A stretch of DNA of 16,063 nucleotides from a virus (Duplodnaviria > Heunggongvirae > Uroviricota > Caudoviricetes), in IMG/VR virus record IMGVR_UViG_2609459830_000022; one strand, written 5' to 3'. The notes under the pieces were generated by a model that was not told the DNA's origin, did no database searches, and saw only the letters and a program-made list of their open reading frames with translations. Of the stretch, positions 2,345 through 16,063 are shown in pieces. The translations under genes and the position numbers were made by a program. How positions within the stretch are numbered: position 1 is the first letter of the stretch; each line of letters starts with the position of its first letter.

Positions 2345-2357
2345 GCTGCTGACCTCA

Positions 2358-4480: not shown

Positions 4481-4648
4481 CATCAGCGATTGCGGAAACA
4501 TTCCATAACCTCGCGGTCACGGTCGTTTAATCGCGTCGCTGTGATGCGTTCTGCGCGTCCTGATGCTTTATCTTTATGCCCTGTTTCCTGTGCCTTCCAT
4601 GCGTCACGCTGCCTTATCAGTCCACGGATAAGGCGGTTTTGTTCCCGC

Positions 4649-5385: not shown

Positions 5386-5720
5386 TTTTCCGCGCCCTCA
5401 CGACAAAGAATTTCAAGGCGTGTCCTGGCGGCATCCGGCAGCGGCTGCCCGATGATATTCAGTACACGCCCCGCCAGCGGCCCCGTATTGACCTTTATCC
5501 GGCTGGTGGCGTTGATGTCCTTCCGGTACCGTATCCAGATCCTTACCGTACCAATCGCCAGCTCTGCACCCGATGAAATGGCCTCCTTGCTGCTGACCAT
5601 GTTCACGCTTGCCCAGAGTGTGTGACCGTCCTCCCACGTTTCGAGTATTTCGCCCGTCATGGCTCTGGTCTGTTTCAGGGTCTGAATCGTTACCCTGTCA
5701 CGCAGTCGCCCTATGTTCAT
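5382..5720 (-). CDS. Head-tail adaptor / head closure protein (112 aa from ATG 5720; alternative ATG at 5762)
   Basis: RVTIQ ... ETWEDGHTLWASV ... pattern of phage head-tail joining proteins. The ATG at 5720 overlaps the portal stop (ATGA coupling). Confidence 0.68.
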   Translation of the reverse strand: MNIGRLRDRVTIQTLKQTRAMTGEILETWEDGHTLWASVNMVSSKEAISSGAELAIGTVRIWIRYRKDINATSRIKVNTGPLAGRVLNIIGQPLPDAARTRLEILCREGAEK

Positions 5721-6928
5721 TCCGGTTTTTCTCCCTCGCTGATTTTTACTTCCTGTTTCCATGCCTGGCTGAACTCATCACCACCATCACGCGGAGACAA
5801 CCCTTCTCGTTCGCGGGCTTCGTTCGGGCACATAACACCGGATTTGATGCCTCGCTCATAGGTGGCAAAGCGTTCGCCAGGAGTGGCCCGTAACAGGTCC
5901 GCGCTGTCAAACTCCACCTGATACCGGATACCAGGTACAGGTGAGGCCACCAGCAGGGCGTTTTTTATCTGCTGCTCAAAGTTCGCCAGCCACGGGCGCA
6001 TCGTCATGGTGAGAAATGCGCGGCTTGCCTCGCTGAAATTGCTGTAGGTGCTGTTGCTGTATTCCTGCAAAAAAATCGGCGAGACGTTGAACATTCGGGC
6101 GATGTCTTCAATGGTGAAGCGACGGGAGGCCAGCCATTCAGCATCCTGATTACTCATGCCCAGCTGCTGATAGCTCATACCCCCTTCAAGGATGGGCGTT
6201 TTTCCGGCGTTTCTGGCCCCTTTATAGCGTTCCAGTGCGGCTAATGCCTGTTTGCCTTTCACGCCGTCCAGCCATTCGCCTGACGTGATAACCCCTGCCG
6301 CCATCATGCCATCACGCATCACGCTCGCGCCGTGGCGTTGTTGGGCCAGCCCAAGCCCCAGCGATTCGCGGCAGATGGTTACAGGTGAGCGCCCCATAAA
6401 GCCGTCATCCGTGGAGTAACGAAGGTGAAGTACTTCCCACGGTAAATAGTTGCGGGTGTTTCCGGTGTAGGCGTCAGTGATGCAATAGCGCCAGTTATGC
6501 TCACCTGTCTGCTCCACGTTCACCGACTGCGGCGGGTAAGGATGCAAAGCGATCGGAAAACCATCACGCCCCCACTGAATCACCGCATAAGCATTACCGT
6601 TTAACAGGCAGTGGCGGATCATCATTCGCTTAAACTGGTAGGGGGTCTGCCATGCGTTCGGGCGCTCGTTGAGGATGTGATCGACCGGATGAGAATCAAG
6701 CCACTCGCGGGCCTCCTTCCCCTTCTCATTGCGTACCAGGTACAGGTAACACGGCATGGTAGCCACCGCCTCAGAGATGACCGTGACGGCGTTCATGACG
6801 GCGGGCAGTGATTCCGCTGTCCCCGATGATACGTACTCACCCGCCCCCGTGTTCGATGTGCCAGCCAGCGCCATAAACTCATCAAGCGTCATGCTGCGCT
6901 GCTCTTTTTTTCTTCTGAAAGGCCACAT
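5717..6928 (-). CDS. Portal protein, HK97 family (403 aa)
   Basis: Size and sequence pattern of HK97-type portal. ATG at 6928 preceded by a GGGGGTG Shine-Dalgarno, 1 nt after the protease stop. Confidence 0.9.
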   Translation of the reverse strand: MWPFRRKKEQRSMTLDEFMALAGTSNTGAGEYVSSGTAESLPAVMNAVTVISEAVATMPCYLYLVRNEKGKEAREWLDSHPVDHILNERPNAWQTPYQFKRMMIRHCLLNGNAYAVIQWGRDGFPIALHPYPPQSVNVEQTGEHNWRYCITDAYTGNTRNYLPWEVLHLRYSTDDGFMGRSPVTICRESLGLGLAQQRHGASVMRDGMMAAGVITSGEWLDGVKGKQALAALERYKGARNAGKTPILEGGMSYQQLGMSNQDAEWLASRRFTIEDIARMFNVSPIFLQEYSNSTYSNFSEASRAFLTMTMRPWLANFEQQIKNALLVASPVPGIRYQVEFDSADLLRATPGERFATYERGIKSGVMCPNEAREREGLSPRDGGDEFSQAWKQEVKISEGEKPE

Positions 6929-6929
6929 A

Positions 6930-7502
6930 TCACACCCCCGCTAAATCCACCCACCAGCGGCGATTATCCGCACGCGGCATTTTTTCGGGGTGCTGCTCAT
7001 ACAGGGAACGGCGGGCCAGCTCCACGCCGGAATCGGGGTAAGCCGGTACCGATGTAACGGTAATTTCGTACAGTTCCGCCACCAGCACGGTGCGCACGCA
7101 TGGATCTGTTGTGGTATCCCATACATCCTTACGGGAGCGAAAGCCAAAGCTCATCCCCGAGATGTCCCCACGCTTAACCAGTTCGATAACGTCGCGCCCT
7201 GTACTGGTATCCGGTGGGGTCAGTTCAAAGCGTAACCCTGTTTCGTCCTCTTCCAGTTTCAGCGTGCCGGAACGGGTGCGCCCCAGTAACATGCTGTGGT
7301 CATGCTCATACAGGCCGCGAACGTCATTACCCGCCGCAAGCCACTCAGTAAACGCCCCCCGCTGGAATTTTTCGTAAAACTCCCCCCATAGCAGTTCTGA
7401 AAGCTTATCCCAGCGAACAACGTAGCCCGTCAGCGTACCGGCTCCGCTGGTAGTGATTTCCGATGACCGGATTTCCATACTCTTCATAATTTTTTCACCC
7501 AT
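6930..7502 (-). CDS. Prohead protease, HK97 family (S78); true start may be ATG 7487
   Basis: HDHSMLLGRT and GDISGMSFGF motifs characteristic of HK97 prohead protease. The first ATG (7502) lacks a Shine-Dalgarno; the second ATG (7487) has GGTGA upstream. Confidence 0.88.
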   Translation of the reverse strand: MGEKIMKSMEIRSSEITTSGAGTLTGYVVRWDKLSELLWGEFYEKFQRGAFTEWLAAGNDVRGLYEHDHSMLLGRTRSGTLKLEEDETGLRFELTPPDTSTGRDVIELVKRGDISGMSFGFRSRKDVWDTTTDPCVRTVLVAELYEITVTSVPAYPDSGVELARRSLYEQHPEKMPRADNRRWWVDLAGV

Positions 7503-7532
7503 AAAACACTAAAGGGGCTTTTAAGCCCCTTC
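7503..7532 (-). terminator. Intrinsic terminator-like hairpin between the major capsid and protease genes
   Basis: Minus-strand RNA reads AAGGGGCUU-AA-AAGCCCCUU (9-bp arms) followed by UAGUGUUUU, immediately after the capsid stop (7542-7544). Confidence 0.5.
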
Positions 7533-7541
7533 TGTATGCTG

Positions 7542-8699
7542 TTAATCGTCGTCCTGTGGCAGTTCCAGAATCTTGATCGCGTTCGAATCCACCACGCCAC
7601 CGCCTAAATATTTCTGCGTGAAAATTTTGATAAAGCCCGGCTCTGTCAGGTTGTCCGGTCTGGTGCGCACGCCCGTTTCATGATCAACGATGTAATAACC
7701 GCGTTTGAAGTCACCCAGGGCGATAACGTTATCCGGCATAAATTCCAGATACTCCACCGGAAGCCCCAGCAACGTATCAGGATCACCCGCCTGTAAACGG
7801 TCGCGCCAGATGTAATCGCCGTTCGCGTTCTTCACCTTCTGAAGTTTTGCCGCCGTCGTGGAGTTAACCACCCAGACCGCGTTTTTGCGGTATTTTTTAC
7901 GTAATGCAAATTTCAGGTCGATCAGCGGGTCCGCAGATGTCCACGCCAGAGATTCGGAAGGTTTAATTACCTGCAACGTACCAAAATCACGCTCTTTGTC
8001 GTTCTTCTCTGCACGGGGTACGGATAAAAAACCTTTTGCTTTTTTGTCACCGTCGCCCACAACCAGATCGCTTTCTTCGGTTTCCGTGAAGGTGTCGCCA
8101 ATCTCACCCGTCAGCCATGAAAGGATGTCCACATCGGAAAAATCCACGATTTCCTGTGTGGTGCGCGGGTACGCATAGACCGGATACAGCTTAATGCTCA
8201 CCTCGTTAATCTGCGGGGTGCTGGTCTGTTCGCGTGCCTTACCCTCTTCACCGTGGTTAACGGTCGCACCGCCAGCGGAAACAAGCTGCTTAAACTCGTT
8301 GCTGCTGATTTTCTTCACGGTACAGATGCGGCGCATGGTGGATTCATCCGTCAGCATTCGCATGATTTCGGTGTTCAGTTCAGGGATAACGGTATAACCA
8401 CCATCAGCGGGAACGCCTGTACTTAATGCGCGGGTTTCACCTGTCAGAATGTAGTTGCGGAGTTCTGCGGGGTCAGTGGTCTGACTGCTTTTACCTGGCT
8501 TGCTGCGCTCTTCGTCTGCAATGGCTTCAAGGCGGGAAATGTCTTTATCGAGGGATTCAGCTTTAGCGCGTAATTCGTCAAATTTTGCGCCCTCAGCATC
8601 GTTAAGACTGCGGTTTTCTTTTTCCGCGTTCTCCAGCATGTCGCGCATCTGATTTTTAATGGCGGTTTTCTGCTGGCGTAATTCGATTATTCTCGGCAT
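7542..8699 (-). CDS. Major capsid protein, HK97 fold, with N-terminal coiled-coil scaffold (delta) domain; 385 aa from ATG 8699
   Basis: N-terminal charged helical region (IIELRQQKTAIKNQMRDMLENAEKENRSLNDAEGAKFDELRAKAESLDKDISRLEAIADEE) followed by a typical HK97-like capsid body. The upstream extension to 8747 in the ORF track starts at GTG and runs through a hairpin, so ATG 8699 is preferred. Confidence 0.9.
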   Translation of the reverse strand: MPRIIELRQQKTAIKNQMRDMLENAEKENRSLNDAEGAKFDELRAKAESLDKDISRLEAIADEERSKPGKSSQTTDPAELRNYILTGETRALSTGVPADGGYTVIPELNTEIMRMLTDESTMRRICTVKKISSNEFKQLVSAGGATVNHGEEGKAREQTSTPQINEVSIKLYPVYAYPRTTQEIVDFSDVDILSWLTGEIGDTFTETEESDLVVGDGDKKAKGFLSVPRAEKNDKERDFGTLQVIKPSESLAWTSADPLIDLKFALRKKYRKNAVWVVNSTTAAKLQKVKNANGDYIWRDRLQAGDPDTLLGLPVEYLEFMPDNVIALGDFKRGYYIVDHETGVRTRPDNLTEPGFIKIFTQKYLGGGVVDSNAIKILELPQDDD

Positions 8700-8736
8700 A
8701 AAAAAAGTCCTGGGATTAAGTAAGGAACTCCAGGAC
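8700..8736 (-). promoter_or_regulatory. Stem-loop plus U7 immediately 5-prime of the capsid start codon; the stem contains the only AGGA Shine-Dalgarno-like motif
   Basis: Minus-strand RNA: GUCCUGG (16-nt loop) CCAGGAC UUUUUUU AUG. Stem arms at 8707-8713 and 8730-8736, T7 at 8700-8706. Confidence 0.5.
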
Positions 8737-8913
8737 GCGGCAAACACTCAACCGTTTTTCATAAGGAAATCAGCAATCGCACCGATCGTTTTCCCGCCTG
8801 GTAATGAATATTGGCGAGAACATTAACAGGCGGAAAAGTGGCCCCAGCGTCCTGGCACCACGGGCGAGAATAATCATGATTCAGTTCGGGTAAAATATGC
8901 CGATCCGCTCAGT

Positions 8914-8940
8914 GAACAACGTGGAACAACCACGAACAAA
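8914..8940. repeat. Phased TTGTT/AACAA repeat cluster, site B (3 units, AACAA on plus strand)
   Basis: gaacaacgtg gaacaaccac gaacaaa. The reverse complement TTGTTCGTGG TTGTTCCACG TTGTTC matches site C (14754..14803) at 24 of 25 positions. It lies about 215 bp upstream of the capsid start. Confidence 0.65.
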
Positions 8941-8950
8941 TAATTTACAA

Positions 8951-8980
8951 AACATGACAAAAAGCCGGATTGCTCCGGCT
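8951..8980 (-). terminator. Rho-independent terminator after the PerC-like gene
   Basis: Minus-strand RNA: AGCCGGA-GCAA-UCCGGCU followed by UUUUUGUCAUGUUUUG, beginning 7 nt after the TAA at 8987-8989. Confidence 0.7.
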
Positions 8981-8986
8981 GTGTGA

Positions 8987-9259
8987 TTATCTGTCCTGGT
9001 AATTTCGCCATATTTCATCACCAGCACCATCCATACCCATTTCGGCATAAGTGCGATCGACCGCCTTTTTCAGGTCTCCGTAATTATCCGGCGGCTCCGG
9101 TGGCCTCTGTGCCTTCCTGGAACATTCCAGCCGTCGCATCGTGATATGATGCCGTTCCTTGTCTGTCTCCACCAGTAGCATGACTTCACCCCATCGCGCC
9201 GCCGCCCTCCGGTAAAAGCCTTTCGCCTCGAGTTCTTCCGCTATGCGGTCATGTACCAT
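8987..9259 (-). CDS. Small regulator, PerC-family-like (90 aa)
   Basis: ATG at 9259 preceded by GAGGGGGGGA Shine-Dalgarno. The motif EAKGFYRRAAARWGEVM resembles the PerC/Pch family of small transcriptional activators; the assignment is from memory of the family motif, not a search. Confidence 0.45.
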   Translation of the reverse strand: MVHDRIAEELEAKGFYRRAAARWGEVMLLVETDKERHHITMRRLECSRKAQRPPEPPDNYGDLKKAVDRTYAEMGMDGAGDEIWRNYQDR

Positions 9260-9269
9260 CGTCCCCCCC

Positions 9270-9680
9270 TCAGAACGGAATATCATCACCGTAAGGGTCA
9301 TCGCCTCCCACTGGTGGCTGATTACCCTGTGTGCCAGTGGTCTTGCGTCGGCTCCCACCAGGACGTGCCGCCCGGGCACTGATTACGCTGTCTGCAATAA
9401 CCTGATAACCCTGCCGCGTTTCCCCGTTCTGTCCGGTCCACTGGCTGACCTGCATGTTACCCGCCACGGTCAGGAGTTCACCCTTGCGGTGCCTTGCCAG
9501 TGCTTCGGCCTGTCTGCCAAATGCCAGGTCGGATAACCACATCGTCGCCGTTCCGTCATCTGCCTGGCTGCACGGAAGGGGGACCGCCATACTCGCCATC
9601 GTCATTTGTGTACCCTTGCTGGTGGTCTTTAACTGCGGGTCAGCCACCAGCCGCCCGTAAGCTGCAATTTGTGCTGTCAT
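9270..9680 (-). CDS. ssb: Single-stranded DNA-binding protein (SSB-like), 136 aa
   Basis: OB-fold-like N-terminal region, Gly/Pro-rich linker and the acidic C-terminal tip DDIPF diagnostic of SSB. GAGGTGG Shine-Dalgarno before ATG 9680. Confidence 0.8.
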   Translation of the reverse strand: MTAQIAAYGRLVADPQLKTTSKGTQMTMASMAVPLPCSQADDGTATMWLSDLAFGRQAEALARHRKGELLTVAGNMQVSQWTGQNGETRQGYQVIADSVISARAARPGGSRRKTTGTQGNQPPVGGDDPYGDDIPF

Positions 9681-9689
9681 ATTGCCACC

Positions 9690-9995
9690 TCAGTGAAGCG
9701 ATCCGGCGTTATTCTTTTTCATCTCTTCCATCATTTTTTCAGTGAGCATTACGCACTGAAAACCCATGTTTTTGATGTCTACGGGCTTCATGCCTTTATC
9801 AGTGGATATCACAGGAAGAATATCCTGATACACATCGCGGTCAGGGTAACTAAGCACACAAAGCGCCCATGATGCCACGGGTGAGGATCCTTCGTCTGTT
9901 TCAACCCACCAGCCTGGTGTAGCTGCGCTTATTTGCAGAATCGTGATCAGTCCGTTGTGCTTGTAAAGTTTTTCACCAAATTTTGGTTCGCTCAT
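9690..9995 (-). CDS. Hypothetical protein (101 aa)
   Basis: ATG at 9995 with GAGAGGTGG Shine-Dalgarno and ATGA overlap with the upstream gene. No recognisable motif. Confidence 0.5.
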   Translation of the reverse strand: MSEPKFGEKLYKHNGLITILQISAATPGWWVETDEGSSPVASWALCVLSYPDRDVYQDILPVISTDKGMKPVDIKNMGFQCVMLTEKMMEEMKKNNAGSLH

Positions 9996-10243
9996 GATTC
10001 CACCTCTCCGGTTTTAACGTTGATGGTTGTTACCTGTTCCGCTTCGGCAATCTCCCGTTCTGTCAGCGTGGCAAAGTTTGCCGCCGCCGTGGTCATGAAT
10101 GCGCTTATCAGGTCGGGATGTTCCTTCGCGTATCCTTCCCGCGTGTGGCGGTCTATCGTTCTGATTGCCACCTTTAAGGTGTGCTCAGTCATGTCTAACG
10201 CTTTATATTTTGGCTCTGTTCTGTCTCTGCGTTTTTGGGTCAT
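9992..10243 (-). CDS. Hypothetical protein (83 aa from ATG 10243; ORF track extends to GTG 10273)
   Basis: ORF immediately downstream of the iteron region. Start choice is uncertain: ATG at 10243 and ATG at 10192 are both possible. Confidence 0.4.
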   Translation of the reverse strand: MTQKRRDRTEPKYKALDMTEHTLKVAIRTIDRHTREGYAKEHPDLISAFMTTAAANFATLTEREIAEAEQVTTINVKTGEVES

Positions 10244-10253
10244 TTCTCGCAAC

Positions 10254-10447
10254 CTCTCACTTTTTCGCCTCACTTTTTCAAGCGTCTCACTTCGTCGCAG
10301 CTGGGATTTTCGGTTTTTCTATGTGTGTGTTTCATAAGTATTTTTTTACCCCTCACTTTTGAGGATGTATACAGGTCGAAAAGTGAGGGAGAGCAGGCTA
10401 ATTTTGGCCCTCTTTCTATCCACCTCGCTTTTGCTCCTCACTTTTAT
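10254..10447. repeat. Iteron cluster, putative replication origin (7 copies of CTCACTTTT, one inverted, flanking an A/T-rich core)
   Basis: Copies at about 10256, 10269, 10286 (imperfect), 10352, 10379 (inverted), 10424 (imperfect) and 10437. The A/T-rich stretch is at 10300-10350. The cluster sits immediately 3-prime of the primase-helicase gene (stop 10444-10446). Confidence 0.7.
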
Positions 10448-11844
10448 AGCGGTGCTACATCATCCCCATCGATACGAATAACCCCATCTTTTTCCAGCTT
10501 GTACAGCCAGCGCCGGAAGTTTTTCATTTCATACCCCAGCTTTTTCATGTCATCACGTAACAGCGGGATCGTGCACTTGTCGCCGTTCTGTGTGCGTGAA
10601 CGGATGCACCCCCATAGCGCGGTATGGTTTTCCGTCTTGTTCCCTGCCTCCTCGATGCGCTCCAGTTCAACAGGAGGGCGCGGATCATCCACCACCACCA
10701 GCGACGTGATTAATTCACCGTCAGCGTCGGTAAAAAGCTCCACCACGCGTAAGTCATATGCGGCTTCTTTGAGTTCCTCCGCGTCCTTCATTTTGGTGCA
10801 TGAGATAACCAGCGCTTCGCTTCCTGCGTCCTCCCTGCGTATCCGGTATTCAGCATCCAGCGAAGCACGAAATGCACTGGAACCGCGCGCGCCTTTCGTC
10901 TCATCCTTGCCGGAATGGTGAACCACCAGCACCGTGGCCCCTGTGCGTCGTTTCAGTTCGTCACAACCACGGATAAACGCCCCCATATCACGGGAATCAT
11001 TTTCATCATTCCCACCAAAGCAACGCGCCAGCGTATCCAGAATAATCATGCGTACAGGTTTACCCGTTTCCCGCTCCACCTGACGGGCAGCGATAACCAT
11101 TTCATCAACATCAAGCGGGGCAGCCGGAAAGATGGGGCGGTTTACCAGATACAGATTTTTCACCTGCTCATCGTGCACAACCTCCCAGGCTTTTACACGA
11201 CGCGGAACACCTATACCGCCTTCACCGACCACATAGAGAACCGCACCATGTGCAACCCTGCGGCCTCCCCACTGGCGACCAGTGGCAACATGGCACGCCC
11301 ACGATCCGGCAAGGAATGATTTATAGGACCCGCTAGCCCCGTATATGCTGCATAGCGATACCGCCGGAATAATCCCCTTAACCACGTAATCCAGTTGCGT
11401 GTCGTATCCGGTAGATCCAACGCTCATCGGTAGCGTGGTTTTTCGCTGGTGGTTTTTTTCTTCCGCCGGCTCTTTCCCACGCACCCGTTCCAGGTATTCG
11501 CGCCAGTTCTCCCGCATATGGCTGTGCATCCCTTCGGGGTAATAATTCGCATCAGTTACACCCGCCGCCGCCAGCTTGTGCGCAATGGCATTAATATTTG
11601 ATGGCCTGATGTGGCCTGCCTTGTACAGCCGGACACAATAGCGCCCCTCGTCGATGATTCTCAGGTCTGCCAGTTCATCCAGTTGATCATCAGCCAGCAC
11701 AACGGGAGGCACATTATCGCCAGCCAGTCGCCCGTCCTGTTCCTGCCACTGTTTCGCATGTGCCCAGGCATCACTACCCGCAAAAATAATGACTTCGGTC
11801 ATCTTGTCGTAAGGCTGTTTTTTTAAGTTCGGTGCGCTTTTCAT
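10444..11844 (-). CDS. Replication initiator: Toprim-like N-domain + RecA-like (RepA/AAA_25-type) ATPase + C-terminal winged-helix; PICI pri-rep-like
   Basis: P-loop-like IYGASGSYKSF, RepA-like segment ILDTLARCFGGNDENDSRDMGAFIRGCDELKRRTGATVLVVHHSGKD, N-terminal VIIFAGSDAWAHA Toprim-like segment. Followed by the iterons. Confidence 0.78.
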   Translation of the reverse strand: MKSAPNLKKQPYDKMTEVIIFAGSDAWAHAKQWQEQDGRLAGDNVPPVVLADDQLDELADLRIIDEGRYCVRLYKAGHIRPSNINAIAHKLAAAGVTDANYYPEGMHSHMRENWREYLERVRGKEPAEEKNHQRKTTLPMSVGSTGYDTQLDYVVKGIIPAVSLCSIYGASGSYKSFLAGSWACHVATGRQWGGRRVAHGAVLYVVGEGGIGVPRRVKAWEVVHDEQVKNLYLVNRPIFPAAPLDVDEMVIAARQVERETGKPVRMIILDTLARCFGGNDENDSRDMGAFIRGCDELKRRTGATVLVVHHSGKDETKGARGSSAFRASLDAEYRIRREDAGSEALVISCTKMKDAEELKEAAYDLRVVELFTDADGELITSLVVVDDPRPPVELERIEEAGNKTENHTALWGCIRSRTQNGDKCTIPLLRDDMKKLGYEMKNFRRWLYKLEKDGVIRIDGDDVAPL

Positions 11845-12140
11845 TTCTTGCCCCTGAATCCGTTAACCATGGTTTTCAGCTTCTGGATGTTTGCCCGTGC
11901 CCTGGCGTTGCTGGTGGGCACGTTATGCGGCGCGGTCTGTACCAGAGAAAAATCACGCCGGAACTGATAAACAGGCATCACGCAATCATATTCGTAACCT
12001 TCACGGCGGTAAGTTACGCACCGTCCCGCCACGCCCTTAATCATTACCGTGCCGCCGTACTGGTCGCGGTAAATATCACCGCGCATAAATTTAGGGTGAG
12101 TGTTGCCACTGGCAGTTAAGCCAGAATATTTAAGTTTCAT
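11841..12140 (-). CDS. Hypothetical protein (99 aa), translationally coupled to the primase-helicase
   Basis: ATG at 12140; its stop overlaps the primase start (ATGA). Confidence 0.5.
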   Translation of the reverse strand: MKLKYSGLTASGNTHPKFMRGDIYRDQYGGTVMIKGVAGRCVTYRREGYEYDCVMPVYQFRRDFSLVQTAPHNVPTSNARARANIQKLKTMVNGFRGKK

Positions 12141-12145
12141 TATTT

Positions 12146-12379
12146 TTATTCTCCGGTGTGCTGTTCGTTATATCTGTCGTGCAATGTCTCTATTTCCTGC
12201 AACTCATTTATTACAGGCTCAAGAAGCGTTATTAATGATGTAATAATCCGCGTTTTTTTTGCATTACGTTCATTATCGCCAAAGGATTCAAGGCACATCC
12301 GCAATATTTCGTACATACCTTCAGCGTAAGCAAGGGCACTAAATGCGCGGTCTATTGTTTCAAGATAAATATCACGCAT
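12146..12379 (-). CDS. Small hypothetical protein (77 aa), member of a tandem paralog trio
   Basis: ATG at 12379 with GGGGA Shine-Dalgarno. Shares the MRD start and an EI-R ... I--LI pattern with the next gene. Confidence 0.45.
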   Translation of the reverse strand: MRDIYLETIDRAFSALAYAEGMYEILRMCLESFGDNERNAKKTRIITSLITLLEPVINELQEIETLHDRYNEQHTGE

Positions 12380-12380
12380 A

Positions 12381-12602
12381 TTAATCCCCGTCCGTTGTTT
12401 TTCTTAAAACAGCTTCTGTCACGAAATCAGCATAGTTAGCGGCAATATCAAGAATATTTAGCCCTGTACCTCTGTGCTCATCAGTGCAAAGAAAGAAAAA
12501 AGCCACCCGCATAATTTCAGATATTGACGAAAGCGCATCAGCCGCATCATCAGGAACGCCGGAAAATTCTTGTTTCAGGGAATTAAAACGATCATCACGC
12601 AT
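12381..12602 (-). CDS. Small hypothetical protein (73 aa), paralog of the 77-aa and 80-aa neighbours
   Basis: ATG at 12602 immediately preceded by a G9 homopolymer on the coding strand (C9 at 12605-12613 on plus). Confidence 0.45.
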   Translation of the reverse strand: MRDDRFNSLKQEFSGVPDDAADALSSISEIMRVAFFFLCTDEHRGTGLNILDIAANYADFVTEAVLRKTTDGD

Positions 12603-12817
12603 AACCCCCCCCCATTTTCACAATCAGCAACAAGAATATTTTTAGCGTCATTCAGCGACCGCGTTGCGATGTATCGGATACATTCCAGGGCGAACGTTGT
12701 CCGGTCTTTCTGTTCTTCTCCCTGCGCAAGCTCTGCCGTGCATTCAATATCAATAAGCGCGTGCATCAGCGTAGTGAGCGCGGCGGCGGCTGCGTCCGGT
12801 GTGGTTTTATTGCACAT
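12575..12817 (-). CDS. Small hypothetical protein (80 aa from ATG 12817), third paralog
   Basis: ATG at 12817 preceded by a strong AGGAGG Shine-Dalgarno. Segment TPDAAAAALTTL resembles VPDDAADALSSI of the 73-aa gene. Its C-terminus (GGG) reads through the G9 tract. Confidence 0.4.
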   Translation of the reverse strand: MCNKTTPDAAAAALTTLMHALIDIECTAELAQGEEQKDRTTFALECIRYIATRSLNDAKNILVADCENGGGLCVMIVLIP

Positions 12818-12980
12818 GGCACACCTCCTGACGAATACGGGCGACAAAAATCAGATGTGCGTGCGGCAGCTGTGCACGTGCTTCGCGCTCAGTGGCAGCG
12901 GTAACGGTGAATATTGCAATACTGTCTGTCAGGCACTGCATAAAGCGCCAGACAAAATAAGGGCGTGTGAATACAGCCAT
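12807..12980 (-). CDS. Icd-like small protein (host cell-division-inhibitor-like), copy B, 57 aa
   Basis: ATG at 12980 with TAGGAGCC Shine-Dalgarno. Motif FVWRF ... TAATEREARAQLP ... LIFVARIRQ is shared with copy A. Family assignment is from memory of the conserved motif. Confidence 0.45.
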   Translation of the reverse strand: MAVFTRPYFVWRFMQCLTDSIAIFTVTAATEREARAQLPHAHLIFVARIRQEVCHVQ

Positions 12981-13266
12981 GTGAAAGGCTCCTACAGTAA
13001 TTTTAAGGAGTCTCGCTACTACGCTGTCAAACATGGTGGCGAGACGTAACAGGGTTGACAGACTGGCACTGTAGAGACCAGCGAGCGCAAAGGCTCCCCC
13101 GTTACGCCCCGCCATAATGCGGGTATGGGTAGGTTTACGGACACAAAAAAACCGCATATCGGAATGTAAGCGGCTGTCCGCTACAGTATTCAGGCTGTCA
13201 AACCCGGTCGCCATGTGGGCGACGGGGGAAGCATACAGCCCCGTGATAATTTTTTGCAAGCGGTTT

Positions 13267-13464
13267 TTACGCATGATGTGACCCCTGACGAATACGGGCG
13301 GCAAATACAGCAACACAACCTGACGGGCAACGGCTACGCGCTTCGCGTTCCGTCCAGGCGGTTACGTGGATGATTTGAGATTCTCCGGCACTCAGTGCCA
13401 GAAAACGCCACACAAAGGCCGTTTGTGTGTGTACAAGGTGTGGTATATGATTTACGGCAACCAT
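13267..13464 (-). CDS. Icd-like small protein, copy A, 65 aa
   Basis: ATG at 13464 with TAGGAGCC Shine-Dalgarno. Motif FVWRF ... TAWTEREARSRCP ... AVFAARIRQ. Confidence 0.5.
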   Translation of the reverse strand: MVAVNHIPHLVHTQTAFVWRFLALSAGESQIIHVTAWTEREARSRCPSGCVAVFAARIRQGSHHA

Positions 13465-13537
13465 AACGGCTCCTAGTTTACGTTGTTGGTTAGAAGCCCT
13501 GCGAGTGGTAATGACACTTGCGGGGCTTTGCTTTTTT
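13458..13537 (+). ncRNA. Candidate small cis-antisense RNA overlapping the start and Shine-Dalgarno of Icd-like copy A
   Basis: Plus-strand promoter-like TTGTGT (13423-13428), 17-nt spacer, TATGAT (13446-13451). Plus-strand-specific terminator at 13496-13537. No plus-strand ORF lies in between. Confidence 0.3.
13496..13537 (+). terminator. Rho-independent terminator, plus-strand specific
   Basis: 12-bp stem gccctgcgagtg / cacttgcggggc (two G-U wobbles on the plus RNA, which are C-A and U-C mismatches on the minus RNA), 7-nt loop, then TTTGCTTTTTT. Confidence 0.6.
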
Positions 13538-13553
13538 AAGTGCTCTTGTGTTA

Positions 13554-13600
13554 AGGTGACCACCTAACAATGGAAAGGCTAATTCAATAGGTGACCACTT
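13554..13600. promoter_or_regulatory. Two operator-like palindromes AGGTGACCACCT (13554-13565) and AGGTGACCACTT (13589-13600) in the divergent control region
   Basis: Inverted-repeat arms AGGTG/CACCT with centres 35 bp apart. The second overlaps the Shine-Dalgarno and TTG start of the RHH gene. A TTGACA hexamer on the minus strand (13605-13600) lies between them. Confidence 0.5.
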
Positions 13601-13790
13601 GTCAACAATCAAACGCGATAAAAGCCCTAAAGGGGACGGGCAATCCCCACAATTCAGAATGCGAATTTCTCCAGAGCTAAAAGAGCAATTCGACAAAGAA
13701 GCACAGAGCGACGGCATAAGCCTAGCCAACTGGCTTAAAGAGTTGGGGCGCACTGAACTAAAGCGGCGCGGCATAGAACCCAAAGGATAA
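13599..13790 (+). CDS. Arc/Mnt-like ribbon-helix-helix DNA-binding protein (63 aa, TTG start)
   Basis: SPQFRMRISPELKEQFDKEAQSDGISLANWLKELG matches the beta-strand / helix A / helix B pattern of P22 Arc (PQFNLRWPREVLDLVRKVAEENGRSVNSEIYQRV). Start must be upstream of the PQF strand; TTG at 13599 has AGGTGA 4 nt upstream. Confidence 0.55.
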   Translation: MSTIKRDKSPKGDGQSPQFRMRISPELKEQFDKEAQSDGISLANWLKELGRTELKRRGIEPKG

Positions 13791-13847
13791 AAACTATCAG
13801 CGCCGTGGTGTGAGGTATTACGGCGCATTGCTATGCAGGACAACACA

Positions 13848-14021
13848 ATGACCGATAAAGAATTGACCAAAACATTATCACCGGCACGGAAAAGACGGCG
13901 CAGAAAGATAGAGCATGAATCAGAAAGATTCGCGCCATGTGCTTTTGCCCTTGAGCAATTCCTTAAAGAGTATAGGGAAAAGCGCTCATTGCAGGTATGG
14001 CAACGAACTGAACCAGACTGA
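13848..14021 (+). CDS. Small basic hypothetical protein (57 aa from ATG 13848; ORF track starts at ATG 13833)
   Basis: ORF downstream of the RHH gene in the same plus-strand unit. AGGA 8 nt before ATG 13848. Arg/Lys-rich N-terminal half. No recognised family. Confidence 0.3.
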   Translation: MTDKELTKTLSPARKRRRRKIEHESERFAPCAFALEQFLKEYREKRSLQVWQRTEPD

Positions 14022-14115
14022 TTGCATTGCCCACCAGCCTGATAGCGGCTATCATCCCCGTGCTTATGTTTGGGATCACATACACATAAGGCGCAGCGGG
14101 TTATCTGTTCAGAAA

Positions 14116-14144
14116 GGCGGCTCCATTTCGGGGCCGCTTTTTTT
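14116..14144 (+). terminator. Rho-independent terminator closing the plus-strand RHH unit
   Basis: ggcggctcc-atttc-ggggccgc followed by T7. The stem has one G-U wobble on the plus RNA that is a mismatch on the minus RNA. Confidence 0.7.
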
Positions 14145-14290
14145 ATGCCTGAAAAACCCCAATTTTGTGGTTTTCCAGTCTCACCAGGGCGAACGAATCC
14201 CCGCCCACGTTCTGGCGTATATTCAATCTTCATGGTTATAGCTCTGTGTTCAGATGATTGATGTGTGGCGGCTGCGTGCCGCCAGCGTGA

Positions 14291-14479
14291 TTAATGAACT
14301 GCCTTGCAGCTATCCTTCCAGGCCAGAACCTCGGATAAAGACCAGCCAACGGAACGACCGCCAAGTTTACGACGTGATGGGAATTGTCCGGCCTTTTCCA
14401 GGCGGTAGCGACACGTACGGCTAAGGCCGGTTAGTTTTTCGCATTCTTTTTCACGTATAAACCGATCAGTGCTTAACAC
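14291..14479 (-). CDS. alpA: AlpA-family phage/island regulatory protein (62 aa, GTG start)
   Basis: LTGLSRTCRYRLEKAGQFPSRRKLGGRSVGWSLSEVLAWK matches the AlpA helix-turn-helix family pattern. A G7 tract serves as the Shine-Dalgarno. Located directly after the integrase gene, as in P4-like and PICI elements. Confidence 0.8.
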   Translation of the reverse strand: MLSTDRFIREKECEKLTGLSRTCRYRLEKAGQFPSRRKLGGRSVGWSLSEVLAWKDSCKAVH

Positions 14480-14520
14480 TATTGCCCCCCCTTTCGTTTC
14501 TTAAAGAGTCATCAGGTGTC

Positions 14521-14543
14521 TTATTGTGTCGTATTGTTCCCGC
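14521..14543. repeat. Phased TTGTT repeat cluster, site D (2 units, TTGT on plus strand)
   Basis: ttATTGTGTCgtATTGTTCCcgc, near-identical to the reverse complement of site A. It lies 45-65 bp upstream of the alpA start. Confidence 0.55.
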
Positions 14544-14753
14544 TAGAGTGATGAATGGCAAATATTGAGGATGTATGATTTACAGAAAATGAAACAGTAA
14601 GAATAAAATCTTTTAAATTCATGTTAATACAAAGGCATAAAATATTGTTTCATGCCTTTTTTCTCGCTCTTTAAAGAGTGATTCGCTAGTGTATAAAAAA
14701 CCAGTGACACATTAAAAATCAGCCACTTATAAATCTGTATGCTTTTTCGCCTC

Positions 14754-14803
14754 TTGTTCGTGGTTGTTCCACATTGTTGCTCATTGTTGCACGTTGTATC
14801 TGT
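14754..14803. repeat. Phased TTGTT repeat cluster, site C (5 tandem 10-bp units)
   Basis: TTGTTCGTGG TTGTTCCACA TTGTTGCTCA TTGTTGCACG TTGTATCTGT with exact 10-bp register, in the int-alpA intergenic region. Confidence 0.65.
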
Positions 14804-14812
14804 TCGCATATA

Positions 14813-14828
14813 CAGTATGCGCATACTG
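14813..14828. repeat. Perfect 16-bp palindrome cagtatgcgcatactg
   Basis: Read directly; located 18 nt downstream of the integrase stop and adjacent to repeat site C. Confidence 0.6.
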
Positions 14829-14845
14829 AAAAAACACGAAAAAAA

Positions 14846-16063
14846 TTATTTTCTTCTGGCTACTGGTAGCGTGGTTACGTTTTCATGTGTTCCCGCCAGT
14901 ATCCCTAACCGCTCCGTCCACATATCCAGCGCATTGCGTTTAGCATCCAGATAACGGGAATGATTATAAACTCGCTGCATTCCTGGCATCTGGTGGCCTG
15001 TAAGCTGCTCCACGACATGCGGATCAACGCCTAAATCGTTCAGCATGGTTGTAAAGGTGCGCCGGATGTCATGCAGTGACCAGTGAGGATGATTAAGCCT
15101 CCTGTGCGCTAATCTTCCATACTGCGATACGCTGGCCTCCTGTTTCACTTCCCCCAGCAATAAGCCCGTGTGCCTGTTCTGCTCCACCAGCTGCGTGACG
15201 AACGGCAGGATCGCTTCCGGTATGGGCCGGAATATTGCGACCTTCGTTTTGCTGTGCTCCTTCGGAACGGTCCATAGCATTTCCGTAAAATCCCACTCCC
15301 CGATCTCCGATAACCTCAGTTCTACCGTTCTGGCTCCGAAGACAATCAGGAGGCGGATTAACGCGACGTAGTAAGGGGAGAATATTTTTTTGTCCAGTGC
15401 CTGCAATAATTCGCCAAGTTCTTTGTTACTTAAGACACGTTCGCTTATATCCGGTTTTTTCCCAACGTCCGCCACGTTCAGATCGTCCAGAACGTTGCTG
15501 ATTGCATAGCGCCGCCTACGGCAGAACTTAAGCGCCTGTTTGCACGCCTGTAGCACGAATCCGGCAGTAACAGGCGTTCGCTTTGCCACCTGGTCAAAAC
15601 AGGCCAGCCAGTGCCGTAGCTCGCATTTATCCAGCGGCATAGCACCAATCTGCTGTATTACGTGATTATTAAGTCGCCTTTTCAGGGCGATATAATCCAC
15701 GCGGTTTTCCTTTACGTAATACTCAAGCCAGTAGGTGAGCGCATCGCCAACCGTTACCGGCTTTAACGCTTCCTGTACGGTGTAATTAAGCTCATGACGT
15801 GGATTTTTCCCCTCTGCCAGCCATGCGCGACACTGGGCGGCTTTTTCCCTGGCTGATTTCAGGCTCAGATCAGGATAACTTCCCAGCTTAATGCGTTCGG
15901 GTCGTGTCTCCCTTCCCGTTCCGGCCCTGTATGTGAAATACCAGGTCAATTTCCCTGATGTTAAATATTTCACGCTCAGGTTTCCGCCATCACTATAAAA
16001 CGTGTTTTTCTCCGCTGGCTTACCATGAAGTTTCCTTAGCAAGGTATCGCTCAGTTTGTTCAT
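14846..16063 (-). CDS. int: Tyrosine recombinase / integrase, P4-type with N-terminal arm-DNA-binding domain (405 aa)
   Basis: N-terminal FYSDGGNLSVKY ... WYFTYR arm-binding-type domain. Catalytic region with GARTVELR, HDIRRTF and the HSRY tyrosine. ATG is the last 3 nt of the window (16061-16063). Confidence 0.93.
   Translation of the reverse strand: MNKLSDTLLRKLHGKPAEKNTFYSDGGNLSVKYLTSGKLTWYFTYRAGTGRETRPERIKLGSYPDLSLKSAREKAAQCRAWLAEGKNPRHELNYTVQEALKPVTVGDALTYWLEYYVKENRVDYIALKRRLNNHVIQQIGAMPLDKCELRHWLACFDQVAKRTPVTAGFVLQACKQALKFCRRRRYAISNVLDDLNVADVGKKPDISERVLSNKELGELLQALDKKIFSPYYVALIRLLIVFGARTVELRLSEIGEWDFTEMLWTVPKEHSKTKVAIFRPIPEAILPFVTQLVEQNRHTGLLLGEVKQEASVSQYGRLAHRRLNHPHWSLHDIRRTFTTMLNDLGVDPHVVEQLTGHQMPGMQRVYNHSRYLDAKRNALDMWTERLGILAGTHENVTTLPVARRK

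What the first reader, a model, noticed from the sequence alone, without database searches (positions are those of the whole stretch)
13554..13790. Arc-like RHH protein with two palindromic operators over its own start, convergent with alpA
The protein has the Arc/Mnt beta-strand and two-helix pattern. Two 12-bp palindromes (AGGTGACCACCT and AGGTGACCACTT) sit 35 bp apart; the second overlaps the gene's TTG start and the first lies in the leader of the divergent minus-strand operon (icd-like, paralog array, primase). This looks like the element's maintenance repressor and its switch, the likely point of helper-phage de-repression.
Basis: partly seen in the sequence, partly recalled or inferred. 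Interest (0 to 1): 0.5.

Follow-up and report, generated by a model that had tools for sequence, protein, structure and literature searches.

The report
Arc-like repressor switch of a cf-PICI
A 63-residue Arc-like DNA-binding protein, missed or mislabelled in public genome annotations, sits with two matching binding sites at the head of the main operon of a capsid-forming phage satellite of E. coli, and is the best candidate yet for the repressor that Gram-negative satellites of this type were thought to lack.

Summary
ORF 13599-13790 (+) is a real gene for an Arc-like ribbon-helix-helix (RHH) protein. The 10-mer AGGTGACCAC occurs only twice in the window, at 13554 and 13589, and the second copy abuts the TTG start.

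The sites are pseudo-palindromes (10/12 and 8/12 self-complementary), not perfect ones.

Eighty related loci give the main evidence:
- The two sites keep a 33-35 bp offset in 69 of 83 cases.
- Their cores change together between loci, in direct or inverted orientation.
- They change together with the residues that align to Arc's base-contacting Gln9 and Asn11.

The geometry fits two overlapping, facing promoters. The leftward -35 TTGACA is built into the repressor's start and Ser2 codons (TCA in 78/78). O2 fills that promoter's spacer. O1 covers the repressor's own extended -10.

A conserved + strand RNA hairpin suggests an added antisense RNA against the first leftward gene (Icd-like, or SymE-like elsewhere).

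The module is identical in EcCIEDL933, where RefSeq annotates a 247-aa shadow ORF on the opposite strand. EcCICFT073 has a non-homologous RHH with its own repeats in the same geometry.

Autorepressor with operators is well supported. Repressor of the main operon is likely. Being the point of helper de-repression is untested, and published work points to AlpA.

The parts
13599..13790 (+). Gene for the 63-aa Arc-like ribbon-helix-helix protein (TTG start; the SD AGGTGA lies inside O2).
   Evidence: The ORF is 60-70 aa in all 82 related loci, with a conserved N-terminus MSTIKRDKSPKG. PHROG 228 'Arc-like repressor' 5e-7. The family profile hits P22 Arc at E=0.0023, residues 11-58 to Arc 2-49. The AF2 model has pLDDT 80.8 and its top Foldseek hits are Arc (prob 1.0, TM 0.87).
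13554..13565 (.). O1, AGGTGACCACCT: the fuller pseudo-palindrome (10/12). It overlaps the candidate -10 of the repressor's own promoter and lies at about +4 to +15 of the candidate leftward transcript.
   Evidence: Its core covaries with O2 and with beta-strand residues 18 and 20 across loci.
13589..13600 (.). O2, AGGTGACCACTT: it abuts or overlaps the TTG start, contains the SD, and fills the spacer of the candidate leftward promoter.
   Evidence: The offset to O1 is 33-35 bp in 69/83 loci. O2 is direct or inverted relative to O1 in different loci.
13528..13557 (+). Candidate promoter of the RHH gene (inferred): -35 TTGCTT 13528-13533, TG 13549-13550, -10 TAAGGT 13552-13557. Predicted start about 13564.
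   Evidence: The motif caTGtTAAgGT and the TTG directly after the hairpin are conserved in the locus consensus. The TG is conserved on one side of the palindrome only. There is no experimental start site.
13576..13605 (-). Candidate leftward promoter for the icd-like/replication/capsid operon (inferred): -35 TTGACA = complement of 13600-13605, 18-nt spacer holding O2, -10 TAGCCT = complement of 13576-13581. Predicted start about 13569.
   Evidence: TGTCAA is fixed at nucleotide level: the Ser2 codon is TCA in 78/78 loci with Ser2, against 28% of other Ser codons in the same genes, and the next base is A in 83/83. The consensus is TTGACA-N18-TAnnAT. The scan tool finds it independently in L021 and L018 at 10/12. 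EcCICFT073, with another RHH allele, has the same geometry. In this window the -10 matches only 3/6 and the scan did not report it.
13493..13540 (+). Conserved RNA hairpin (stem 13493-13529) with a T-run. It is specific to the + strand and terminator-like.
   Evidence: It is more stable on the + strand in 78/78 distinct loci (mean -24.4 vs -16.7 kcal/mol; G.U pairs 343 vs 64). 13 of 14 pairs show compensatory changes, 85% of cells are paired against 37-61% in slid controls, and 0/500 shuffles reach this.
13423..13540 (+). Candidate cis-antisense small RNA (inferred): promoter TTGTGT 13423-13428 / TATGAT 13446-13451, RNA about 13458-13540. It covers the antisense of the start codon and SD of the icd-like gene, with the anti-SD CUCC in a hairpin loop.
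   Evidence: The fold is -36 kcal/mol, z = -4.45. A -10-like GGTAnAnT lies about 42 nt upstream of the hairpin in loci whose first leftward genes have at least 7 unrelated N-termini. No Rfam family matches. No expression data exist.
13267..13464 (-). First gene of the leftward operon: an Icd-like small protein.
   Evidence: NF033153 5.8e-18. Icd-like first genes occur in many related loci and SymE-like ones in another group.
13833..14021 (+). orf62, a small basic protein of unknown function, downstream of and probably co-transcribed with the RHH gene (alternative start 13848).
   Evidence: phrog_21027 1.6e-15. A nearly identical copy follows a different RHH allele in EcCICFT073. It is absent next to the RHH in other genera.
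14111..14145 (+). Intrinsic terminator of the RHH-orf62 unit (14-bp stem followed by U7).
   Evidence: -28.4 kcal/mol on the + strand (z -3.58) against -19.9 on the minus strand (z -1.37).
14291..14479 (-). alpA, convergent with the RHH-orf62 unit.
   Evidence: PF05930 5.4e-17.

Best explanation
ORF 13599-13790 encodes a 63-residue Arc-like ribbon-helix-helix protein. It most likely binds, as a dimer per site, two copies of a 12-bp pseudo-palindrome: O1 at 13554-13565 and O2 at 13589-13600.

The sites lie in a 135-bp control region that appears to hold two sigma-70 promoters facing each other, with overlapping footprints.
- The repressor's own promoter has an extended -10, TGtTAAGGT, at 13549-13557. 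O1 covers half of it.
- A leftward promoter would drive the icd-like -> replication -> capsid/terminase operon. Its -35, TTGACA, is the complement of the repressor's start codon plus its Ser2 codon. O2 fills its 18-bp spacer. O1 sits just after its start point.

Occupied sites would therefore shut the leftward operon and limit the repressor's own synthesis (negative autoregulation), much as Arc does at Pant.

A conserved + strand small RNA, antisense to the ribosome-binding site of the first leftward gene, probably adds a translational lock on that gene.

What is shown and what is inferred:
- Shown by sequence and comparison: the gene, the fold, the sites, their covariation with each other and with the protein, the fixed TGTCAA, and the strand-specific hairpin.
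- Inferred: binding itself, the promoter start points, the small RNA, repression of the leftward operon, and how the helper (via AlpA) overcomes it.
For: Gene and fold:
- The ORF is conserved at 60-70 aa in 82 loci, while the opposite-strand shadow frame has stops inside it in 42/82.
- PHROG Arc-like repressor 5e-7.
- The profile hits Arc at E=0.0023. P17-Q18-F19-R20-M21-R22 align to Arc P8-Q9-F10-N11-L12-R13.
- The AF2 model's top hits are Arc, TM 0.87, rmsd 1.2 A.

Operators:
- Two copies, at a 33-35 bp offset in 69/83 loci.
- Eight-bp cores differ between loci, and both copies change together: GTGACCAC, GTGGCCAC, GTACGTAC, GTACACAC, GTGTACAC, GTATAGAC, GCATATAC.
- Asymmetric cores occur in direct orientation (the window) or inverted (L005, L008, L013, L014, L017, L019, L051). 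This argues for a duplex-DNA site, not an RNA signal.
- The cores track beta-strand positions 18 and 20: QxR, QxK, TxQ, AxQ, PxH, MxN, and M.P (motif PMLPIR, where the usual Phe is Leu). Arg22 is invariant.
- Own-locus match is 9.09/10, against 6.58 across classes.
- In EcCICFT073 a non-homologous RHH replaces this one together with the repeats, while orf62, alpA and the hairpin stay. The repeats therefore follow the RHH.

Promoters.

Operon end: a + strand terminator at 14111-14145.

Small RNA.

Context:
- The element is a cf-PICI.
- The module is identical in EcCIEDL933.
- Integrases lie downstream in the same orientation in 38/81 loci.
- The literature states that a global repressor in Gram-negative PICIs is unclear (PMC6092414).
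Against: - There is no binding, start-site or expression data.
- In this window the leftward -10 (TAGCCT) matches only 3/6, and the scan tool did not report either promoter.
- Fourteen of 83 loci lack the two-site pattern at the usual offset.
- The Pfam RHH (HicB) match is 0.6 bit under the gathering score.
- Published work explains induction of EcCICFT073 and EcCIEDL933 by AlpA alone. AlpA overexpression suffices for excision and replication, and no repressor is mentioned.
- EcCIEDL933 capsids are made even without an inducing phage. If the leftward operon is repressed, the repression is leaky or is bypassed.
- A centre-to-centre offset of 33-35 bp is not an integral number of helical turns, so cooperative binding between the sites is not obvious.
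Confidence: 0.7

Rival explanations
1. The RHH protein binds the two sites but only autoregulates its own small operon (RHH-orf62). The leftward operon is controlled by other means: AlpA, the antisense RNA and the C4 RNA.
For: O1 overlaps the candidate -10 of the RHH promoter and O2 overlaps its SD and start, so autoregulation alone could explain both sites. The leftward -10 is weak in this window. Published induction depends on AlpA. A C4/a1b1 RNA layer exists in the operon.
Against: The perfect -35 TTGACA is fixed at nucleotide level inside the RHH start region in 83 loci. The scan tool finds a leftward promoter with an operator in its spacer in L018 and L021, and in EcCICFT073, which carries a non-homologous RHH. 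It is hard to see why this geometry would recur if the sites did not act on the leftward promoter.
Confidence: 0.15
2. It is the antitoxin of a type II toxin-antitoxin pair (NCBI names relatives 'HicB family antitoxin'), with orf62 as the toxin. The repeats would be the usual autoregulatory operator of a TA operon.
For: Names given by sources. Weak matches to RHH antitoxin profiles: Pfam HicB 4.9e-4, RelB 0.13. A small gene follows in the same direction.
Against: The protein is the RHH domain only, with no HicB N-terminal domain and no C-terminal toxin-binding tail: helix 2 ends at residue 56 of 63. No HicA gene is present. The downstream gene is not conserved: 24/83 loci have none, and orf62 occurs only in E. 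coli relatives. orf62 stays the same when the RHH allele is swapped in EcCICFT073. Nothing matches in PADLOC.
Confidence: 0.05
3. The real gene is the long minus-strand ORF 13490-14233 (247 aa) that RefSeq annotates. The small + strand ORF and the repeats (which contain SD-like AGGTGA) would be incidental.
For: PGAP calls this ORF in O157:H7, O55:H7 and MS 21-1. The repeat does contain an SD-like motif.
Against: The ORF has no family match in Pfam, NCBIfam or PHROGs. Its frame shares third codon positions with the RHH frame, which is the classic shadow frame. It has stops inside the RHH ORF in 42/82 loci, and its extent varies from 31 to 452 codons. Both + strand ORFs match protein families. 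A + strand terminator lies inside it.
Confidence: 0.02
4. The RHH is an accessory DNA-binding factor for recombination, replication or DNA processing (as with TraY/NikA/MobA-type or ParG/omega-type RHH proteins), not a transcriptional switch.
For: Weak NCBIfam hits to TraJ (0.0073) and MobA (0.14). The gene lies near int and alpA.
Against: The element has no relaxase or partition genes. The sites sit exactly over promoter elements and the gene's own start, not at att or ori. The closest structures and sequences are Arc.
Confidence: 0.03

Closest known systems
Arc repressor of Salmonella phage P22 (immI region: arc, ant, sar)
   Same: Fold and size are the same. This is the best sequence and structure match, including the P-Q-F-x-x-R beta-strand. 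Arc represses its own promoter Pant (PMC12111858), and its operator lies within that promoter (own knowledge: between -35 and -10). The immI region also has a small antisense RNA, sar.
   Different: Arc binds one 21-bp operator as a dimer of dimers (own knowledge; PDB 1PAR). Here there are two separate 12-bp sites 33-35 bp apart. arc is the first gene of the operon it represses; here the repressor is transcribed opposite to its presumed target. sar acts inside the arc-ant transcript, whereas the candidate RNA here covers the first leftward gene. The host element is a satellite, not a phage. Sequence identity is only about 28%.
Stl/Rpr master repressors of Gram-positive PICIs (SaPIs)
   Same: The position is the same: next to the integrase end, and transcribed opposite to the excision/replication/packaging operon (description in PMC6092414). 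The presumed role is the same: keeping the island silent.
   Different: Stl/Rpr are described as master repressors lifted by direct binding of a helper protein and are much larger HTH proteins (own knowledge). This is a 63-aa RHH with no partner known. In these E. coli islands induction goes through AlpA.
The small opposite-strand gene of EcCICFT073 ('YlcI/YnfO family protein', WP_000190587.1)
   Same: It occupies the same slot between alpA/orf62 and the icd-like gene. The hairpin and orf62 are the same. It has its own 13-bp repeat twice, one copy in the spacer and one at the -10/+1 of a leftward promoter TTGACG-N18-TATAGT.
   Different: There is no detectable sequence similarity. The repeat sequence differs (AGGTGTGGCCCAC) and so does the spacing (23 bp start to start). 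The repeats lie about 55-100 bp upstream of its start codon rather than over it.
symE-SymR of E. coli K-12 (toxin with cis-antisense RNA over its translation start; own knowledge, Kawano et al. 2007)
   Same: In one group of related loci the first leftward gene is SymE-like (NF010128, 4e-15). The candidate RNA overlaps the start codon and SD in antisense, as SymR does.
   Different: No Rfam SymR match. symE is LexA-controlled and has no RHH neighbour. In this window the target is Icd-like, not SymE-like.
P1/P7 immI c4 RNA - icd - ant
   Same: An Icd-like gene is held down by RNA. A true C4 RNA and its a1b1 target are present further into the same operon of this window.
   Different: C4 is a processed, trans-acting RNA on the same strand as its targets. 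The element described here is a protein repressor plus a cis-antisense RNA. C4 is absent from 18 other loci that have the RHH module.

Membership tests
Ribbon-helix-helix (MetJ/Arc) superfamily, Arc-like branch | Sequence match to family profiles | tested here: met
   PHROG 228 'Arc-like repressor' 5.1e-7. The family profile against PDB hits P22 Arc at E=0.0023 over residues 11-58. Pfam PF05534 (RHH of HicB) scores 20.4 bits against a gathering score of 21, just below.
Ribbon-helix-helix (MetJ/Arc) superfamily, Arc-like branch | An N-terminal strand followed by two helices in about 45 residues | tested here: met
   In the AF2 model, residues 20-60 have pLDDT 89-95, with helices at 25-37 and 42-56. 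All top Foldseek PDB hits are RHH proteins, and the first are Arc (prob 1.0, TM 0.87, rmsd 1.2 A). The strand is not assigned in the monomer model, as expected.
Ribbon-helix-helix (MetJ/Arc) superfamily, Arc-like branch | Dimer forming a two-stranded antiparallel sheet | not testable with these tools
   Only monomer prediction is offered.
Ribbon-helix-helix (MetJ/Arc) superfamily, Arc-like branch | The sheet reads repeated or palindromic DNA sites | tested here: inconclusive
   No binding assay is possible. Indirect support is strong: the operator core covaries with the residues aligned to Arc Gln9 and Asn11, while the residue aligned to Arg13 is invariant.
HicB antitoxin (the name NCBI gives relatives) | An N-terminal HicB domain that neutralises HicA, plus a C-terminal DNA-binding domain | tested here: not met
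   The protein has 63 residues. Only the RHH part matches: residues 17-47 to the last 34 positions of PF05534.
HicB antitoxin (the name NCBI gives relatives) | An adjacent hicA toxin gene, or any conserved partner gene | tested here: not met
   There is no conserved co-directional neighbour in 83 loci. orf62 has no toxin family match.
PICI master repressor (Stl/Rpr-like role) | Encoded at the int end and divergent from the excision/replication/packaging operon | tested here: met
   Gene order is int, alpA (minus strand), orf62 and RHH (+ strand), then icd-like ... helicase ... capsid ... terminase (minus strand). An integrase lies downstream in the same orientation in 38/81 loci.
PICI master repressor (Stl/Rpr-like role) | Represses the main operon; loss gives uncontrolled induction | not testable with these tools
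   This needs genetics in EcCIEDL933 or the present element.
PICI master repressor (Stl/Rpr-like role) | Repression is lifted by a specific helper-phage protein | not tested
   No candidate is known. Published induction is through AlpA.
Capsid-forming PICI (cf-PICI), for the element that carries the module | int, alpA and a replication gene, plus own HK97-type capsid, protease, portal, connectors, HNH, TerS and TerL, no tail genes, about 15 kb | tested here: met
   Pfam hits across the window. Gene order matches the Sp7/EcCIEDL933 locus. The region 13282-14900 is 98.5% identical to EDL933.

The most novel reading that the evidence does not exclude
This small RHH cassette is the missing master repressor and immunity determinant of Gram-negative PICIs and cf-PICIs.

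- The cassette consists of the repressor, two covarying operators over face-to-face promoters, and a cis-antisense RNA locking an Icd- or SymE-type toxic first gene.
- Its exchangeable protein/operator alleles would define immunity groups among satellites.
- Helper-induced AlpA would work by overriding it. Routes could include transcription from PalpA running antisense through the RHH unit into the leftward operon, or direct antagonism at the operators.
Probability: 0.3. Interest if true: 0.75.

Novelty: new member of a known kind. Interest (0 to 1): 0.6.

Why it matters
[quoted passage not shown] The later cf-PICI papers describe none.

What this analysis adds:
- The prototype cf-PICI EcCIEDL933 carries a conserved Arc-like repressor with matched operators exactly at the head of its main operon.
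- Public annotation hides this behind a 247-aa ORF on the wrong strand.
- The prototype classical PICI EcCICFT073 has an unrelated RHH in the same slot with the same operator-promoter geometry.

This turns the open question into a few simple experiments. It also suggests that satellites carry swappable immunity alleles.

The natural series of protein/operator pairs offers a recognition-code data set for RHH proteins. Examples are Q18/R20 with GTGACCAC, T18/Q20 with GTACGTAC and P18/H20 with GTGTACAC.

Tried and rejected
- Codon-position test for the coding strand. Rejected as uninformative, because the RHH frame and the 247-aa antisense frame share third codon positions. The three differences between the window and EDL933 are silent in both frames. 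ORF-length conservation and stop counts were used instead.
- RNAalifold on a plain MAFFT alignment of the hairpin region gave no structure, because stems of different length were misaligned. It was replaced by per-sequence folding on both strands and pair counting on 26 equal-length sequences.
- Rfam for the hairpin or candidate RNA. Only chance-level hits appeared (rnk_pseudo at 26 bits against a gathering score of 55, mir-1842), and no SymR.
- tblastn of orf62, icd and alpA from the window against the loci. orf62 was absent elsewhere, and Icd-like genes were mostly too divergent for tblastn. They were later confirmed with NCBIfam.
- PADLOC, PDB and Pfam searches for orf62 found nothing.
- Literature searches for an RHH, repressor or operator in E. 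coli PICIs and cf-PICIs, and for Icd-like genes in satellites, found no prior description. The identity and strand of 'ORF3' in the AlpA reporter of PMC6092414 could not be established from the text.
- LexA control. There is no LexA-like box near the operators. One perfect CTGT-N8-ACAG lies far away, at 14800-14815.
- The 6-codon mini-ORF ATGGAAAGGCTAATTCAATAG between the sites is not conserved: it reads ATA in EDL933.
Full report
**What is in the sequence**

The window holds phoQ (1-1461) followed by an integrated element. The element carries TerL, TerS, HNH, portal, prohead protease, major capsid protein, SSB, a RepA-type helicase and DUF4222, then small genes, alpA and a tyrosine integrase at the right end. 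This is the gene set of a capsid-forming PICI.

From 13282 rightwards the window is 98.5-99% identical to prophage-like element Sp7 of E. coli O157:H7. That includes strain EDL933, whose element is the published prototype EcCIEDL933.

The finding's statements all hold:
- A 63-codon ORF runs from a TTG at 13599 to 13790 on the + strand.
- AGGTGACCACCT lies at 13554-13565 and AGGTGACCACTT at 13589-13600, 35 bp start to start.
- The second copy runs into the start codon.
- alpA (14291-14479, minus strand) is convergent.
- The 10-mer AGGTGACCAC occurs nowhere else in the window.

The sites are pseudo-palindromes, at 10/12 and 8/12 self-complementary positions. In this window they form a direct repeat.

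**The gene is real and on the + strand**

RefSeq annotates a 247-aa 'hypothetical protein' (WP_001304194.1) on the minus strand across 13490-14233 in O157:H7 and O55:H7. It annotates a 221-aa one in strain MS 21-1.

That frame shares third codon positions with the RHH frame, so substitution patterns cannot decide between them. Other evidence does:
- The 63-aa protein has 54 database clusters across Enterobacterales, nearly all 63-64 aa, with a conserved N-terminus.
- In 82 loci fetched around relatives, the + ORF is always 60-70 codons.
- The shadow frame has stops inside it in 42 of those loci, and its open stretch varies from 31 to 452 codons.
- The long ORF matches no family. The two + strand ORFs do: PHROG 228 'Arc-like repressor' at 5e-7 and phrog_21027 at 1.6e-15.
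- A strong + strand terminator (14111-14145) lies inside the long ORF.

**Fold and family**

- A profile of the family finds P22 Arc in the PDB at E=0.0023, with residues 11-58 aligned to Arc 2-49. This places P17-Q18-F19-R20-M21-R22 on Arc's P8-Q9-F10-N11-L12-R13.
- The AlphaFold model (pLDDT 80.8; 89-95 over residues 20-60) has helices at 25-37 and 42-56. Its best PDB matches are Arc structures (prob 1.0, TM 0.87, rmsd 1.2 A). Every other hit is an RHH protein.
- The Pfam RHH model (HicB family) scores 20.4 bits against a threshold of 21.
- The family is small: 134 clusters at 50% identity with E<=1e-3 among 1.84 billion representatives.

NCBI's name for relatives, 'HicB family antitoxin', is not borne out:
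- There is no HicB N-domain and no C-terminal tail.
- There is no HicA gene and no conserved neighbour gene.

**The two sites are operators of this protein (inferred from comparison)**

Upstream regions of all loci were aligned at the start codon. The same layout recurs:
1. a hairpin;
2. a motif TGnTAnGGT;
3. a 12-bp (pseudo)palindrome;
4. about 23 nt of spacer;
5. a second copy ending at the start codon.

The offset is 33-35 bp in 69 of 83 cases, and the 10-mer matches at 9-10 positions in 65. The central 8 bp differ between groups of loci, and both copies change together.

Where the core is asymmetric, the second copy is sometimes direct (the window) and sometimes inverted (L005, L008, L013, L014, L017, L019, L051). 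That is what a site read on duplex DNA by a symmetric dimer would allow. An RNA signal would not allow it.

The core also tracks the beta-strand motif:

| Beta-strand motif | Operator core |
|---|---|
| PQFRMR | GTGACCAC |
| PQFKMR | GTGGCCAC |
| PTFQIR | GTACGTAC |
| PAFQIR | GTACACAC |
| PPFHMR | GTGTACAC |
| PMFNVR / PLFNVR | GTATAGAC |
| PMLPIR | GCATATAC |

The variable positions align to Arc Gln9 and Asn11. The invariant Arg aligns to Arc Arg13. These are the three base-contacting residues of Arc (own knowledge; PDB 1PAR).

A site matches its own upstream region at 9.09/10 on average. It matches the upstream regions of other classes at 6.58, and shuffled sequence at 6.11.

In EcCICFT073 the slot holds a non-homologous small RHH-like protein ('YlcI/YnfO family'; no BLASTP similarity) with a different repeat, AGGTGTGGCCCAC, present twice. 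Meanwhile orf62, alpA and the hairpin are retained. The repeats therefore follow the RHH allele, not its neighbours.

**Promoter geometry (inferred)**

The bases TGTCAA at 13600-13605 are fixed at nucleotide level:
- The second codon is TCA in 78 of 78 loci that have Ser there. TCA makes up only 28% of the other Ser codons of the same genes.
- The next base is A in 83 of 83 loci.

On the minus strand this reads TTGACA. The consensus of the loci is TTGACA-N18-TAnnAT, with O2 inside the spacer.

The scan tool independently reports this leftward promoter:
- L021: TTGACA-18-TAATAT, 10/12.
- L018: TTGACA-18-TAGTAT, 10/12.
- EcCICFT073: its only promoter-like site is TTGACG-18-TATAGT. It points to the icd-like gene, with one repeat in the spacer and the other over -10/+1.

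In the present window the -10 is TAGCCT (13581-13576; 3/6, but with the T1, A2 and T6 positions). The tool does not report it.

On the + strand, the conserved caTGtTAAgGT gives an extended -10, with TG at 13549-13550 and TAAGGT at 13552-13557, half covered by O1. A TTG directly after the hairpin serves as the -35.

The predicted starts are about 13564 rightward and about 13569 leftward. The two promoters would then face each other with fully overlapping polymerase footprints. O1 would sit at the -10 of one and the +4 to +15 of the other. O2 would sit in the spacer of the leftward promoter and over the SD and start of the repressor gene.

**A second, RNA layer (noticed here, partly followed up)**

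The hairpin at 13493-13529 plus its T-run is conserved as structure:
- It is more stable on the + strand in 78 of 78 distinct loci, at -24.4 against -16.7 kcal/mol.
- It has 343 G.U pairs against 64 on the other strand.
- 13 of its 14 pairs show compensatory changes. 85% of cells are paired against 37-61% in slid controls, and 0 of 500 shuffles reach this.

It is preceded by a short hairpin whose loop carries CUCC, the complement of the SD of the first leftward gene. About 42 nt upstream of the terminator hairpin lies a -10-like GGTAnAnT. That motif persists although the first leftward genes of the loci have at least seven unrelated N-termini.

The simplest reading is a cis-antisense RNA of about 80 nt (about 13458-13540) covering the translation start of the first leftward gene.

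That gene is Icd-like here and in many loci. It is SymE-like in another group. No Rfam family matches.

Further into the operon this window also has a true C4 antisense RNA (13032-13119; 69 bits) and its a1b1 target (13187-13236). These precede a second icd-like gene, as in P1 immI. This layer is not found next to the RHH in 18 other loci.

**How it most likely works**

- Shown: a conserved Arc-like protein; two conserved sites that co-evolve with it; a nucleotide-level constraint that equals a perfect -35; a strand-specific structured RNA.
- Inferred: dimers on O1 and O2 block the leftward promoter (spacer and start region, as Arc does within Pant) and the repressor's own promoter. The result is a self-limiting repressor that keeps the icd-like/replication/packaging operon off. 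The antisense RNA blocks translation of the first, probably harmful, gene if transcription leaks.
- Unknown: how induction overrides this.

For EcCICFT073 and EcCIEDL933, AlpA is required and helpers switch on alpA. AlpA overexpression alone induces EcCICFT073. After alpA on the minus strand there is only a GC hairpin without a U-run, followed by the weaker reverse face of the + terminator. Transcription from PalpA might therefore run antisense through the RHH unit into the leftward operon. This is speculation. The report that EcCIEDL933 capsids are made without an inducer shows that any repression is leaky.

**Rivals**

- Autoregulation only (0.15). This is hard to reconcile with the fixed TTGACA and the recurrence of the geometry with an unrelated RHH.
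- Toxin-antitoxin (0.05). There is no partner gene, no tail, and orf62 does not co-vary with the RHH.
- The long minus-strand ORF (0.02).
- A recombination, replication or DNA-processing accessory protein (0.03).

**Comparison and novelty**

It works like Arc at Pant, with an antisense RNA nearby as in P22 immI. It occupies the place that Stl/Rpr repressors hold in Gram-positive PICIs.

It is a member of the RHH superfamily, closest to Arc. It is not a HicB antitoxin.

As a kind of system (a small autoregulated RHH repressor with palindromic operators over promoters) it is known. As a family and in this biological place it is undescribed in the literature I could search.

This allele is present once per genome in 162 of 5426 complete E. 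coli genomes. It occurs in different PICI backbones (cf-PICI here and in EDL933, a classical PICI in MS 21-1), so the module moves between elements.

Noticed in passing
window 13032-13236 (minus strand) and 12807-12982: A P1-immI-type RNA control sits inside the leftward operon. It comprises the c4-a1b1 target (RF03163, 13187-13236), the C4 antisense RNA (RF01695, 13032-13119, 69 bits), then a b2-like GTTTGACAGCG and the SD/ATG (12980) of a second icd-like gene. PGAP annotates a frameshifted 'hypothetical protein' over the homologous stretch in strain MS 21-1.
   Followed up: partly
window 13423-13540 (+): A conserved + strand hairpin with a T-run is preceded by a small hairpin with the anti-SD CUCC in its loop and by a -10-like motif. 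It is a candidate cis-antisense RNA of about 80 nt against the translation start of the first leftward gene. No Rfam family matches.
   Followed up: partly
window 13490-14233 (minus strand); L001, L084, L085: RefSeq/PGAP annotates a 221-247-aa hypothetical protein (WP_001304194.1, WP_001329530.1) antisense to the RHH gene and orf62. It behaves as a shadow ORF, with stops in that frame inside the RHH ORF in 42/82 related loci.
   Followed up: yes
window 13833-14021 (+); L083 8243-8416: orf62 is a small basic protein (RKRRRRK; phrog_21027) of unknown function. It is nearly identical in EcCICFT073 although the RHH allele upstream of it is unrelated. It is absent next to the RHH outside E. coli relatives.
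   Followed up: partly
L083 8474-8860 (EcCICFT073): The prototype classical PICI has a non-homologous small RHH-like gene ('YlcI/YnfO family') in the same slot. It has two copies of AGGTGTGGCCCAC placed in the spacer and at the -10/+1 of a leftward promoter TTGACG-N18-TATAGT.
   Followed up: partly
L063-L066, L070, L077, L081 and others, about 130-430 nt upstream of the RHH start: In one group of loci the first gene opposite the RHH is a SymE-like toxin rather than Icd-like, with the same hairpin and anti-SD arrangement. This recalls symE/SymR.
   Followed up: partly
window 13409-13429 (minus strand): A terminator-like hairpin (CACACAAACGGCCTTTGTGTG followed by GCGTTTTCTG) lies only about 35 nt into the icd-like ORF. 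It overlaps the candidate -35 of the antisense RNA promoter. Possibly an attenuator.
   Followed up: no
window 14800-14815: A perfect LexA-box-like CTGT-N8-ACAG (CTGTTCGCATATACAG) lies between the end of int and alpA. It is the only zero-mismatch match in the window.
   Followed up: no
window 1-1461 and about 2000-16063: The element lies next to phoQ, the same chromosomal site as EcCICFT073. Left of 13282 the window diverges from Sp7/EcCIEDL933 (a RepA-type helicase here, DUF5906 primase there), so the element is a mosaic.
   Followed up: partly
window 13780-13835 (+): A GC-rich hairpin (GCGCCGTGGTG...TATTACGGCGC; -17.9 kcal/mol, z -2.8) lies between the RHH stop and orf62. It is conserved in EcCICFT073 and marks the right border of the swapped RHH allele.
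   Followed up: no
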